Virus record (IMG/VR): IMGVR_UViG_2609460005_000001
DNA from: a virus
Lineage: Duplodnaviria > Heunggongvirae > Uroviricota > Caudoviricetes
Length of the DNA: 4,479 bases
Strand: one strand, 5' to 3'
Shown: positions 1 through 4,479 of the stretch, piece after piece
Position numbering within the stretch: the first letter of the stretch is position 1
Layout of the letters: every line of letters starts with the position of its first letter
Position numbers and translations under genes: made by a program
Notes under the pieces: model-generated
What the model saw: the letters and a program-made list of their open reading frames with translations, nothing else
What the model was told of the DNA's origin: nothing
The model's database searches: none

Positions 1-89
1 TCTGATGGAAATGGAAGCCACGCAAGCACCTTAAAATCACCATCATACACTAAATCAGTAAGTTGGCAGCATTACCTAAACACTGCACT

Positions 90-645: not shown

Positions 646-666
646 TGTATAAATAAGGAGCACACC

Positions 667-831
667 ATGCAATATGCCATTGCAGGGTGGCCTGTTGCTG
701 GCTGCCCTTCCGAATCTTTACTTGAACGAATCACCCGTAAATTACGTGACGGATGGAAACGCCTTATCGACATACTTAATCAGCCAGGAGTCCCAAAAAA
801 TGGATCAAACACTTATGGCTATCCAGACTAA
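667..831 (+). CDS. cIII: CIII (54 aa; inhibitor of FtsH-mediated CII degradation)
   Basis: Not in the ORF track because it is under the length cutoff. ATG at 667 is preceded by a strong SD TAAGGAG (654-660). Translation [54 protein letters not shown] matches lambda CIII as I recall it. Stop TAA at 829-831. Confidence 0.9.
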   Translation: MQYAIAGWPVAGCPSESLLERITRKLRDGWKRLIDILNQPGVPKNGSNTYGYPD

Positions 832-2782: not shown

Positions 2783-2940
2783 AGCATCCTCACGATAATA
2801 TCCGGGTAGGCACGATCACTTTCGTCTACTCCGTTACAAAGCGAGGCTGGGTATTTCCCGGCCTTTCTGTTATCCGAAATCCCCTGAAAGCACAGCGGCT
2901 GGCTGAGGAGATAAATAATAAACGGGGGCTGTATGACTGA
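2779..2940 (+). CDS. orf60a-like small protein, 53 aa, apparently truncated relative to lambda orf60a
   Basis: Below the track cutoff. ATG at 2779 overlaps the exo stop (ATGA 2779-2782). Translation [53 protein letters not shown] resembles what I recall of lambda orf60a, which follows exo in the same arrangement. The stop at 2938-2940 lies inside the start of the downstream methyltransferase gene. Confidence 0.55.
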
Positions 2941-3490
2941 TTTCACCGGAAGCAATACTCCTGCCGAACATCGCGACAGCTGGCGCACACCACCAGAGAT
3001 TTTTGCTGCGCTTAATGCAGAGTTCGTTTTTCAACTTGATGCTGCCGCCAGCGAAAAAAACCGACTATGTCGGCTTTTTATCTCACAGGAGCAGAACACA
3101 TTAACCACTTCATGGCCTGAAGCAATGGGATATGCCTCTGGTTATGTCTGGTTGAATCCACCATACAGCAATATTTCCCCTTTTGTGAAAAAGGCAGCCA
3201 CTGAAAACAAATTCAGTAGTGTGGGATGTGTAATGTTATTGCCTGCTGACACATCTGTCGGATGGTTTCATGAAGCGATACAAACCGCCAGTGAGGTCAG
3301 ATTCATCACGGCAGGACGACTGGCATTTATTAACCCACTCACTGAGAAACCCGTCAGTGGAAATAATAAAGGCTCGATGCTCATTATCTGGCACCCATAC
3401 CCCCGTACACACTGCCACTTTACGACCGTTGATCGTGGAGAGTTGATGGCGTTCGGCTCAAGGATTCTTGCCCGTCGGGAGGCTGCATGA
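2933..3490 (+). CDS. Phage Dam-family DNA N6-adenine methyltransferase (185 aa), orphan with no cognate restriction enzyme in the window
   Basis: 185-aa ORF with the catalytic motif-IV tetrapeptide NPPY (in ...YVWLNPPYSNISPF...) and an N-terminal WRTPPEIFAALNAEFVFQLDAAAS segment typical of the small phage Dam family. Assignment is by motif and pattern recognition, not a search. Confidence 0.8.
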   Translation: MTDFTGSNTPAEHRDSWRTPPEIFAALNAEFVFQLDAAASEKNRLCRLFISQEQNTLTTSWPEAMGYASGYVWLNPPYSNISPFVKKAATENKFSSVGCVMLLPADTSVGWFHEAIQTASEVRFITAGRLAFINPLTEKPVSGNNKGSMLIIWHPYPRTHCHFTTVDRGELMAFGSRILARREAA

Positions 3491-3570
3491 CAACCACGGA
3501 ATGCATTTTTCTGGCAGCGGGCTTCATATTCTGTGTGCTTATGCTTGCCGACATGGGACTTGTTCAATGA
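3487..3570 (+). CDS. Candidate 27-aa hydrophobic micro-protein (MTTTECIFLAAGFIFCVLMLADMGLVQ), coupled to both neighbours
   Basis: Not in the track (too short). Its ATG at 3487-3489 overlaps the methyltransferase stop TGA at 3488-3490, and its stop TGA at 3568-3570 overlaps the ATG at 3567-3569 of the next ORF. The core IFLAAGFIFCVLML is long enough for one transmembrane helix. No independent SD was seen; support is purely structural. Confidence 0.3.
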   Translation: MTTTECIFLAAGFIFCVLMLADMGLVQ

Positions 3571-3782
3571 CACCTCAGCAGGAAAACGCCCTTCGCAGCA
3601 TTGCCCGTCAGGCTAATTCTGAAATCAAAAAAGCCAGACAGCAGTTTCCGGATAAAAACGTCGATGACATTTGCCGTAGCGTACTAAAGAAGCACCGCGA
3701 AACGGTAACGCTGATGGGATTCACACCGACTCATTTAAGCCTGGCGATCGGCATGTTAAACGGCGTCTTTAAGGAACGGTGA
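3567..3782 (+). CDS. Hypothetical protein, 71 aa from ATG 3567 (track ORF 3468..3782 begins at a TTG inside the methyltransferase gene)
   Basis: Open frame with mixed charged/helical composition: MTPQQENALRSIARQANSEIKKARQQFPDKNVDDICRSVLKKHRETVTLMGFTPTHLSLAIGMLNGVFKER. The start is ambiguous between ATG 3501 and ATG 3567; 3567 is preferred because of the ATGA coupling with the micro-ORF and because it avoids overlap with the methyltransferase. I do not recognise a family. Confidence 0.5.
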   Translation: MTPQQENALRSIARQANSEIKKARQQFPDKNVDDICRSVLKKHRETVTLMGFTPTHLSLAIGMLNGVFKER

Positions 3783-3803
3783 ACATGAAAAGCAAAATCA
3801 TCA

Positions 3804-3826
3804 GGGAGCTACAGGCTCCTTTTTTA
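3804..3826 (+). terminator. Candidate intrinsic terminator between the 71-aa ORF and the TraR-like gene
   Basis: Stem GGGAGC (3804-3809) / GCTCCT (3815-3820) with a terminal G-U pair, loop TACAG, immediately followed by TTTTTTAT (3821-3828). Short stem but a clean T-tract. Confidence 0.45.
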
Positions 3827-3880: not shown

Positions 3881-4099
3881 ATGGCAGACATCATTGATTC
3901 AGCATCAGAAATCGAAGAATTACAGCGCAATACAGCAATAAAAATGCGTCGTCTGAACCACCAGGCTATATCTGCCACTCATTGTTGTAAGTGTGGCGAT
4001 CCCATAGATGAACGAAGACGCCTGGCCGTTCAGGGTTGTCGGACTTGTGCAAGTTGCCAGGAGGAGATCGAACTTAAGAACAAACAATGGGGATTGTGA
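3881..4099 (+). CDS. TraR/DksA-family C4 zinc-finger protein (72 aa; phage Orf73-like RNA polymerase-binding regulator)
   Basis: Translation contains C35-x2-C38-x17-C56-x2-C59 (…THCCKCGDPIDERRRLAVQGCRTCASCQEE…), the spacing characteristic of the TraR/DksA C4 zinc finger, and the length matches TraR-like proteins of plasmids and lambdoid phages. The ATG is closely preceded by GGAAG. Confidence 0.8.
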   Translation: MADIIDSASEIEELQRNTAIKMRRLNHQAISATHCCKCGDPIDERRRLAVQGCRTCASCQEEIELKNKQWGL

Positions 4100-4146
4100 T
4101 GGCCTCAAAGCAGCAAATTTCAACATCGTCCAACTGAGGTGTAAAA

Positions 4147-4425
4147 ATGTTCAGAATCATTTTTCCTAACACCTGGTACGTCGACCACCACGGCACTCCC
4201 TGCAAAATCCTGCGTTCTACCCACAACAAAGTTCACTACATCCGAAAAGGCAGAACATGTATCGCCAGCATGTTCCGCTTTAATCATGACTTTGAACCTG
4301 TGAATAAAGCTGATGCAGATCGGATAGCAGAAGAGATCGAAACGGCAGAACACATTAAGAAGTTACGTGACATGCGTTCAAAAAGCAGAGGTAACCATGG
4401 AATCATACAGCCTCACACTCGATGA
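4147..4425 (+). CDS. Hypothetical protein, 92 aa, immediately upstream of and overlapping the excisionase start
   Basis: ORF with a good SD (GAGGTG 4134-4139, 7-nt spacer). The N-terminal half is rich in His/Cys/aromatic residues (…VDHHGTPCKILRSTHNKVHYIRKGRTCIASMF…) and the C-terminal half is acidic/basic and helical. It occupies the position held by ea-type accessory genes upstream of xis in lambdoid phages. No family recognised. Confidence 0.55.
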   Translation: MFRIIFPNTWYVDHHGTPCKILRSTHNKVHYIRKGRTCIASMFRFNHDFEPVNKADADRIAEEIETAEHIKKLRDMRSKSRGNHGIIQPHTR

Positions 4426-4479
4426 GGCCTGTCAGTTTCTTAAGATATCCAGACCAACCGCCACCAACTGGATACGAAC
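4397..4479 (+). CDS. xis: Excisionase / AlpA-family helix-turn-helix DNA-binding protein (Xis), 5' partial, continues past the window end
   Basis: ATG at 4397 opens MESYSLTLDEACQFLKISRPTATNWIR…, an N-terminus I recognise as the P22-type/AlpA-like excisionase family. The frame is still open at the window end. Its position at the distal end of the pL operon fits an xis-int module following. Confidence 0.65.
   Translation, partial: MESYSLTLDEACQFLKISRPTATNWIR

What the first reader, a model, noticed from the sequence alone, without database searches (positions are those of the whole stretch)
4147..4425. Unknown 92-aa protein overlapping the excisionase start by 29 nt
It has a good SD and an N-terminal His/Cys-rich segment that could be a small metal-binding or nucleic-acid-binding fold. 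It occupies the variable ea-gene slot upstream of xis, and the overlap with xis suggests co-regulation with excision functions. Function is not predictable from sequence.
Basis: inference. Interest (0 to 1): 0.45.

Follow-up and report, generated by a model that had tools for sequence, protein, structure and literature searches.

The report
Known DUF4222 prophage protein beside excisionase
The 92-codon frame is a real, conserved gene of lambda-like prophages, but it belongs to a catalogued family (DUF4222, which includes the virulence regulator RgdR), occurs in about four in ten complete E. coli genomes, and has no conserved metal-binding site, so it is ordinary rather than new.

The parts
4136..4141 (+). 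Shine-Dalgarno sequence GAGGTG of the DUF4222 gene. An in-frame TGA at 4135-4137 closes the frame upstream.
   Evidence: Read from the sequence. The same upstream 25 nt occur in SfI, E2865, SCEC020001 and Lambda_2E9.
4147..4425 (+). DUF4222 (PF13973) / phrog_285 protein gene, 92 aa, identical to RefSeq WP_000488407.1.
   Evidence: dN/dS 0.10-0.19.
4174..4302 (+). Residues 10-52: predicted five-stranded SH3/Tudor-like beta-barrel with a short helix at 42-48. This is the Pfam DUF4222 core.
4306..4389 (+). Residues 54-81: long C-terminal helix, acidic first half and basic second half, carrying the family-conserved I60, E65 and H69-IKKLR motif.
4376..4377 (.). Mosaic junction at codon 77. Homology with the 79-aa (phage 21 / icd-type) gene variants ends here.
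   Evidence: DNA alignment. Megablast matches stop at query nt 227-230.
4378..4422 (+). Residues 78-92 (SKSRGNHGIIQPHTR): module-specific tail, predicted disordered after residue 81. The joint brings it in with the xis-int module.
   Evidence: (pLDDT 54 and 44 for the last two blocks).
4388..4391 (+). GAGG Shine-Dalgarno sequence of xis, lying inside the DUF4222 reading frame.
   Evidence: Read from the sequence.
4397..4479 (+). 5' part of the excisionase gene (HTH_17, phrog_2907), cut by the window end. It overlaps the DUF4222 gene by 29 nt. It is 116 aa and intact in the source-identical genome.
   Evidence: In other genomes the same xis 5' end is joined to a different upstream gene, with homology starting at the xis ATG.
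3881..4099 (+). TraR/DksA-family C4 zinc-finger gene, the most constant neighbour of the DUF4222 gene.
   Evidence: A homologue lies upstream on the same strand in 18 of 21 loci.

Best explanation
The ORF is a genuine gene for a small basic protein (10.9 kDa, pI 9.9) of the DUF4222 family, the family of the prophage/PICI regulator RgdR. It lies at the distal end of the lambdoid early-left (pL: cIII-kil-gam-bet-exo-...-xis-int) operon. It usually sits just after a TraR/DksA-like zinc-finger gene and before whichever xis-int module the phage carries. The predicted structure is an SH3/Tudor-like five-stranded barrel (residues 10-52) plus a long amphipathic helix (54-81).

Inferred mechanism: it is made with the delayed-early genes and acts in trans as a small modulator of transcription. 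It would do so through low-specificity DNA binding and/or contact with a component of the host transcription machinery, as reported for RgdR. It is not a metalloprotein and is not part of the excision machinery.

The last 15 residues and the 29-nt overlap with xis are by-products of a recombination joint at codon 77.

Shown: gene reality, family membership, selection, predicted fold, the mosaic joint and the synteny. Inferred: when it is expressed and the regulatory activity.
For: Family: PF13973 at 69.4 bits against a cut-off of 27; phrog_285 E 3e-38; RefSeq name. RgdR also hits PF13973 and aligns with the window protein at 24% identity, E 4e-6.

Selection: dN/dS 0.10-0.19 at dS above 1.

Charge: pI 9.93, against 10.09 for RgdR.

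RgdR biology: it activates LEE1 independently of Ler, represses motility, and binds DNA non-specifically in EMSA (PMC3378721).

Operon context: the cIII thermoregulator RNA, gam, bet and exo are on the same strand.

Linkage: a TraR/DksA gene is upstream in 18 of 21 loci, while the downstream xis belongs to three unrelated families at variable distance.

Joint at codon 77.
Against: The window protein is only 24% identical to RgdR. It lacks RgdR's RGD motif and N-terminal extension. None of the residues that separate active from inactive RgdR variants is conserved in it, so RgdR's activity cannot simply be transferred.

RgdR's own mechanism is unresolved, and its DNA binding was non-specific.

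SH3/Tudor-like barrels are generic. Foldseek found no significant PDB hit (best E 0.019).

No expression or phenotype data exist for this subfamily.

In the source-identical genome an IS1 truncates the prophage upstream, so pL-driven expression may be lost in that strain.
Confidence: 0.5

Rival explanations
1. Tudor-like RNA-polymerase binder. The barrel docks on the RNAP beta lobe, as the UvrD/PcrA C-terminal domains and the CarD RID do. Together with the neighbouring TraR-like secondary-channel binder, it forms a two-protein phage module that reprograms host transcription.
Confidence: 0.15
2. Excision or integration accessory factor. It is functionally or translationally coupled to xis and modulates the directionality or timing of site-specific recombination.
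For: It is always in the distal pL segment within about 1.7 kb of xis/int. It is directly adjacent to xis in E. coli phages. The 29-nt overlap places the xis SD inside the ORF.
Against: The mosaic joint at codon 77 separates it from the xis-int module. It is paired with three unrelated excisionase families and different integrases. In Enterobacter, Salmonella and Citrobacter prophages, 1-5 unrelated genes intervene. RgdR sits before a primase gene in a PICI, not beside xis. In DLP12-type remnants the gene persists next to a truncated xis.
Confidence: 0.1
3. Generic protein-binding host-takeover or anti-defence factor. The SH3-like barrel would target some host protein other than the transcription apparatus.
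For: The location is a hypervariable accessory region that also holds a Dam methylase, DndB/DGQHR, ASCH, dATP/dGTP pyrophosphohydrolase and cytosine methylases in different phages. The small barrel fold is a common protein-binding module.
Against: There is no PADLOC hit, although that library holds defence systems rather than anti-defence proteins. There is no consistent linkage to any defence-related neighbour. The one characterised relative is a regulator.
Confidence: 0.2
4. Small zinc- or metal-binding protein that uses the N-terminal His/Cys residues.
For: There are 8 His and 2 Cys. C19, C38, H15, H26 and H30 are conserved in relatives of 54% identity or more.
Against: In homologues of 47-56% identity H26 and H30 are already replaced, and C38 becomes R at 47%. 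Across the family C19 is V in 12 of 21 sequences and C38 is R, N or Q. RgdR has one His and one Cys. The replacement of C19 by V suggests a buried core position (inference). No zinc-finger or metal-binding family was hit. Ligand distances in the model could not be measured.
Confidence: 0.03
5. Not a gene, or the real gene is the antisense ORF 4120-4353 (77 aa). The equivalent antisense ORF is the one annotated in Salmonella phage S9-5.
For: The antisense frame is open for 42-100 codons in most loci. It was annotated in S9-5.
Against: Antisense dN/dS is 1-2.5 against 0.10-0.19 for the sense frame. The antisense frame is interrupted in several loci, whereas the sense frame is intact in all 22 sequences examined. 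Pfam and PHROG hits are on the sense strand.
Confidence: 0.01

Closest known systems
Pfam PF13973 (DUF4222) / PHROG phrog_285
   Same: Full-length domain match (residues 3-53 against model positions 1-53, 69.4 bits). Same length class, prophage-borne and enterobacterial. The identical sequence is already annotated under this name in RefSeq.
   Different: Nothing in sequence terms. Both libraries list the family as of unknown function.
RgdR (ECs1581) of the EHEC O157:H7 CP-933C/Sp7 island (OI-51, a PICI); Flockhart et al. 2012, PMC3378721
   Same: Same Pfam domain. Small and basic (pI 10.1 against 9.9). Barrel core followed by a basic C-terminal segment with a similar I-x-x-[IL]-[KR]-K-[LM] motif. 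Carried on a mobile element.
   Different: 24% identity. The window protein has no RGD motif (P7-N8-T9 aligns to it) and lacks the 16-residue N-terminal extension. It sits in a lambdoid pL operon before xis, not before a primase gene in a P4-like island. The residues shown to matter in RgdR (R20, K35) are not conserved. Activity on LEE or motility is untested.
C-terminal Tudor domains of UvrD/PcrA and the RNAP-interacting domain of CarD
   Different: 4-11% identity and no detectable sequence relationship. Those are domains of large proteins, whereas this is a stand-alone barrel with an added helix. RNAP binding is untested.
Lambda Ea8.5 and orf55 (lambdap35)
   Same: Positional analogues: small accessory genes immediately upstream of xis in the pL transcript.
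   Different: No sequence similarity at all.

Membership tests
DUF4222 (PF13973) | Match to the family HMM above the curated gathering score, covering the whole domain | tested here: met
   69.4 bits against a cut-off of 27; residues 3-53 on model positions 1-53 of 53. Also phrog_285 E 3.2e-38 over 82 of 83 positions.
DUF4222 (PF13973) | Family-conserved residues present (M1, F2, I5, D13, V29, Y31, F45, F49, E50, I60, E65, H69-IKKLR) | tested here: met
   Alignment A2 of 21 sequences down to 23% identity, including RgdR and the Stx-phage and Klebsiella homologues.
RgdR functional group (T3SS/motility regulators, PMC3378721) | RGD tripeptide at positions 20-22 | tested here: not met
   The RgdR residues R20-G21-D22 align to window P7-N8-T9.
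RgdR functional group (T3SS/motility regulators, PMC3378721) | Orthologue-level similarity (the paper reports above 77% over 99 aa) and a 99-aa architecture with an N-terminal extension | tested here: not met
   24% identity over 75 aa. The window protein starts at the barrel, with no extension.
RgdR functional group (T3SS/motility regulators, PMC3378721) | Located in a P4-like island/PICI upstream of the primase gene | tested here: not met
   The window gene is in a lambdoid cIII-gam-bet-exo-...-xis-int operon. RgdR lies between small ORFs and a primase gene.
RgdR functional group (T3SS/motility regulators, PMC3378721) | Activates LEE1/T3S, represses motility, shifts DNA in EMSA | not testable with these tools
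   Needs experiments.
Zinc-finger / small metal-binding proteins | A set of 3-4 Cys/His ligands conserved across homologues | tested here: not met
   C19 is V in 12 of 21 sequences, C38 is R, N or Q, and H26, H30 and H47 vary freely in A2. These residues are conserved only in the close subfamily A1. No metal-binding family was hit.
SH3/Tudor-like small beta-barrel fold | Five-stranded barrel superposable on known members | tested here: met
RNAP-binding Tudor domains (UvrD/PcrA CTD, CarD/Mfd RID) | Conserved RNAP beta-lobe contact surface and demonstrated binding | not tested
Excisionase / recombination directionality factors | Winged-helix or HTH fold, or a match to an Xis family (HTH_17, Exc, DUF1233) | tested here: not met
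   No such hit for the 92-aa protein. The predicted fold is a barrel plus helix. The true xis is the next gene.

The most novel reading that the evidence does not exclude
DUF4222 proteins, including RgdR, are stand-alone Tudor-like domains that bind the RNA polymerase beta lobe. In lambdoid phages they would work as a pair with the adjacent TraR-like secondary-channel binder to redirect host transcription early after induction. This would explain how RgdR changes LEE1, motility and curli expression without sequence-specific DNA binding.
Probability: 0.12. Interest if true: 0.55.

Novelty: already known. Interest (0 to 1): 0.15.

Why it matters
It matters only modestly. The gene is among the most widespread lambdoid accessory genes in E. 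coli (about 43% of complete genomes), and its biochemical function is still undefined. The one studied relative regulates EHEC virulence genes. A structural hypothesis (SH3/Tudor-like barrel plus basic helix, steadily linked to a TraR-like gene) gives a concrete test for a family that has stood as a 'DUF' since RgdR was described in 2012. For this scan the main value is negative. The ORF is not an orphan, not a metalloprotein and not part of the excision module. Its overlap with xis is a recombination scar.

Tried and rejected
- NCBIfam: no hit for the protein.
- PADLOC: no hit.
- PDB by sequence, single protein and family profile: nothing at E below 0.2.
- Foldseek against PDB and BFVD: only generic, non-significant small-barrel hits.
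- The afdb50 library was not available.
- The search for related loci with the divergent alignment A2 failed for lack of a conserved stretch. It was rerun with A1.
- The exhaustive profile search found only 48 clusters (50% identity) at E <= 1e-3. It did not list RgdR's branch or other full-length members below about 25% identity.
- Apparent domain fusions (P0017 'ybl17', P0130, P0131, P0142, P0149, P0009, P0044, P0139) turned out to be deletion, frameshift or start-calling artefacts in degraded prophages, not real architectures.
- Lambda Ea8.5 and orf55, the positional equivalents, show no similarity.
- A literature search for the accession numbers, ybl17 and PF13973 found nothing relevant. 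'DUF4222' appears in 5 papers, and the two read led only to RgdR and a STEC marker table.
- The antisense ORF was rejected by dN/dS.
- The metal-binding reading was rejected by ligand conservation.

Full report
**1. Observation**

The window is the early-left (pL-type) operon of a lambdoid prophage, read on the + strand. Its genes in order are:
- an Ea10-like DUF2528 gene (226-594)
- cIII, with its Rfam thermoregulator RNA (654-712)
- kil
- gam
- bet (1320-2105)
- exo (2102-2782)
- a DUF1317 gene
- a Dam-type N6-adenine methylase (2933-3490)
- a phrog_303 gene (3567-3782)
- a TraR/DksA zinc-finger gene (3881-4099)
- the ORF in question (4147-4425)
- the 5' end of an HTH_17 excisionase gene starting at 4397

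Independent annotations of phage SfI and of E. coli SW07164 place both genes identically. The window is 100% identical to SW07164 over all 4479 bases.

**2. It is a real gene**

DNA at or above 95% identity to the ORF is present in 2357 of 5426 complete E. coli genomes, and 117 phage records hold a protein-level match. Homologues from Enterobacter, Salmonella, Citrobacter, Lelliottia, Pseudocitrobacter and Klebsiella keep the frame and the MF start.

For divergent pairs (dS above 1), Nei-Gojobori dN/dS in the sense frame is 0.10-0.19. The antisense ORF 4120-4353 gives 1-2.5 and is interrupted in several loci.

**3. It is not an orphan**

The protein matches Pfam DUF4222 (PF13973) at 69.4 bits against a cut-off of 27. 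It matches phrog_285 at E 3e-38. RefSeq names the identical sequence WP_000488407.1 'DUF4222 domain-containing protein'.

The exhaustive profile search found only 48 clusters (50% identity) at E <= 1e-3, so the lambdoid subfamily is narrow. The 11 genome loci found in the one-genome-per-species search were nearly all from Enterobacteriaceae.

The literature search for 'DUF4222' led to one characterised member, RgdR (ECs1581). RgdR is 99 aa and is encoded on the cryptic P4-like island CP-933C/Sp7 (OI-51, later recognised as a PICI). It activates LEE1 and type III secretion independently of Ler, GrlA and QseC. It represses motility and increases Congo-red binding. It binds DNA only non-specifically in EMSA (PMC3378721; PMC10877973; PMC6092414).

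I took RgdR from the Sakai genome. Its computed mass of 11,703 Da and pI of 10.09 equal the published values. It hits PF13973 and aligns with the window protein at 24% identity over 75 residues (E 4e-6).

RgdR's RGD motif aligns to P7-N8-T9 of the window protein. Its 16-residue N-terminal extension is absent. R20 and K35, the residues whose substitution altered RgdR activity, are not conserved. The window protein is therefore a family member and a distant paralogue of RgdR, not an RgdR orthologue.

**4. Structure**

With a 29-sequence alignment, AlphaFold2 gives mean pLDDT 84.4, with 92-93 over residues 11-60. The model has:
- five strands (10-12, 18-24, 28-33, 36-41, 50-52), with a short helix at 42-48 between the last two
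- a long helix at 54-81
- a low-confidence tail

Foldseek against PDB and BFVD gave only non-significant matches of the same fold class. There is no sequence-level relative in the PDB. The fold class (SH3/Tudor-like barrel plus helix) is well supported as a prediction. Any specific functional analogy is only a lead.

**5. The His/Cys idea**

The protein is His-rich: 8 of 92 residues, P about 0.001 against a 2.3% background. The candidate ligands do not hold up across the family.
- C19, C38, H15, H26 and H30 are conserved in relatives of at least 54% identity.
- At 47-56% identity H26 and H30 are already replaced, and C38 becomes R.
- In the 21-sequence family alignment C19 is V in 12 sequences, C38 is R, N or Q, and every barrel His varies.
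- Only H69, in the helix motif EHIKKLR, is family-wide (17 of 21).
- RgdR has one His and one Cys.

The replacement of C19 by V suggests a buried core position (inference). I could not measure distances in the model. A conserved metal site is not supported.

**6. The xis overlap**

A DNA alignment of the window and SfI against the phage 21 / icd-type loci shows near-identity up to window 4376, followed by unrelated sequence. The break falls at codon 77.

In the phage 21-type context the protein ends two codons later (79 aa...LRAIRRK). An Exc-family xis follows after 140 nt. In the window type, the frame runs on for 15 codons (SKSRGNHGIIQPHTR) through the xis Shine-Dalgarno sequence and the first 29 nt of xis.

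A 101-nt probe across the joint is found whole in 1107 genomes, about 47% of the carriers. In other genomes the same xis 5' end is joined to a different upstream gene (yfdT), with homology beginning at the xis ATG.

Across 21 loci the distance from the DUF4222 stop to an excisionase gene varies widely:
- -29 nt in 4 loci
- +13 nt
- +140 nt in 4 loci
- +258 to about +1700 nt in others

In the last group, dATP/dGTP pyrophosphohydrolase, DUF551, DUF7694 or unknown genes lie in between. The excisionases belong to three unrelated families: HTH_17, Exc and DUF1233. In DLP12-type remnants the gene persists beside a truncated xis.

The overlap is thus a recombination scar specific to one module combination. 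It is not a conserved coupling. Whether it affects xis translation in this combination is untested.

**7. The steadier partner**

A TraR/DksA zinc-finger gene lies upstream on the same strand in 18 of 21 loci. In eight it is immediately adjacent. In the others one to three genes (ASCH, NinX-like and others) intervene. The Stx-phage branch (POCJ13 type, 37% identity) lacks it and follows exo directly.

**8. Mechanism**

- Shown: a conserved, selected, basic 9-11 kDa protein with a predicted SH3/Tudor-like barrel and an amphipathic helix. It is encoded in the delayed-early leftward operon and belongs to the RgdR family.
- Inferred: it is produced on induction or infection and acts in trans as a small modulator of transcription, by low-specificity DNA binding and/or contact with the transcription apparatus, as RgdR appears to.

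I put family membership and gene reality at about 0.97. I put the regulator-like mechanism at about 0.35-0.4. The more specific RNAP-lobe-binding version is at about 0.12-0.15.

The rivals are an excision accessory factor (0.1), a generic host-takeover or anti-defence binder (0.2), a metalloprotein (0.03) and a non-gene or antisense gene (0.01).

In the strain with the identical sequence, an IS1 end occupies window 1-76 and truncates the prophage upstream. The native pL promoter is probably missing there.

**9. Verdict**

The object is an already catalogued, very common prophage gene whose biochemical function is still open. Interest is low (0.15) and novelty is 'already known'.

Noticed in passing
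window 1-76: End of an IS1 element. The window starts inside IS1: the IS1 transposase CDS ends at window 21 in the identical genome, and homology to other prophages starts at 77. The insertion cuts the prophage's early-left operon off from its promoter-proximal part.
   Followed up: partly
window 654-712: Rfam Lambda_thermo (cIII thermoregulator RNA), 88.5 bits, spanning the cIII start at 667. It confirms the lambda-type pL operon context.
   Followed up: no
window 3881-4099: A TraR/DksA-family C4 zinc-finger gene (phrog_54). A homologue lies upstream of the DUF4222 gene in 18 of 21 loci from six genera. This linkage is tighter than the linkage to xis.
   Followed up: partly
window 4120-4353 (- strand); L010 1513-1704: A long antisense 'shadow' ORF overlaps the DUF4222 gene codon-for-codon and stays open in most homologous loci. 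In Salmonella phage S9-5 the annotators called this antisense ORF and missed the DUF4222 gene. dN/dS of 1-2.5 shows it is not selected.
   Followed up: yes
window 3488-3571: An unannotated 27-codon ORF (MTTTECIFLAAGFIFCVLMLADMGLVQ). It is strongly hydrophobic, overlaps the stop of the Dam methylase gene and ends just inside the phrog_303 gene. It may be a small membrane peptide.
   Followed up: no
window 3803-3821: A terminator-like hairpin followed by a T run, between the phrog_303 gene and the TraR-like gene on the + strand. It lies inside the pL transcript and would need antitermination to be read through.
   Followed up: no
window 2933-3490: A phage Dam-type N6-adenine methyltransferase (PF05869, E 2e-56) occupies the variable slot after exo/DUF1317. 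Related phages carry a DndB/DGQHR protein, a queuine tRNA-ribosyltransferase-like gene, cytosine methylases or DUF1382 at this position.
   Followed up: no
L007 (Shigella phage POCJ13) about 2753-2800: The Stx-phage DUF4222 homologue is followed by a GC-rich hairpin plus T run. An apparently unannotated excisionase ORF (MDSHSITLKEAC...) then lies between it and int.
   Followed up: no
L024 (E. coli SW07164) 9160-10479: Just beyond the integrase of this prophage lie a PerC-family regulator gene and an Abi-family gene. PerC/Pch regulators act on LEE, as RgdR does.
   Followed up: no
proteins P0017, P0142, P0149, P0131, P0139: Many database 'DUF4222' proteins of odd length are chimeras made by deletions or frameshifts in decaying prophages. 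Examples are the phrog_303 N-terminus fused at residue 22, Ea22-like or methylase N-termini, and read-through into xis.
   Followed up: partly
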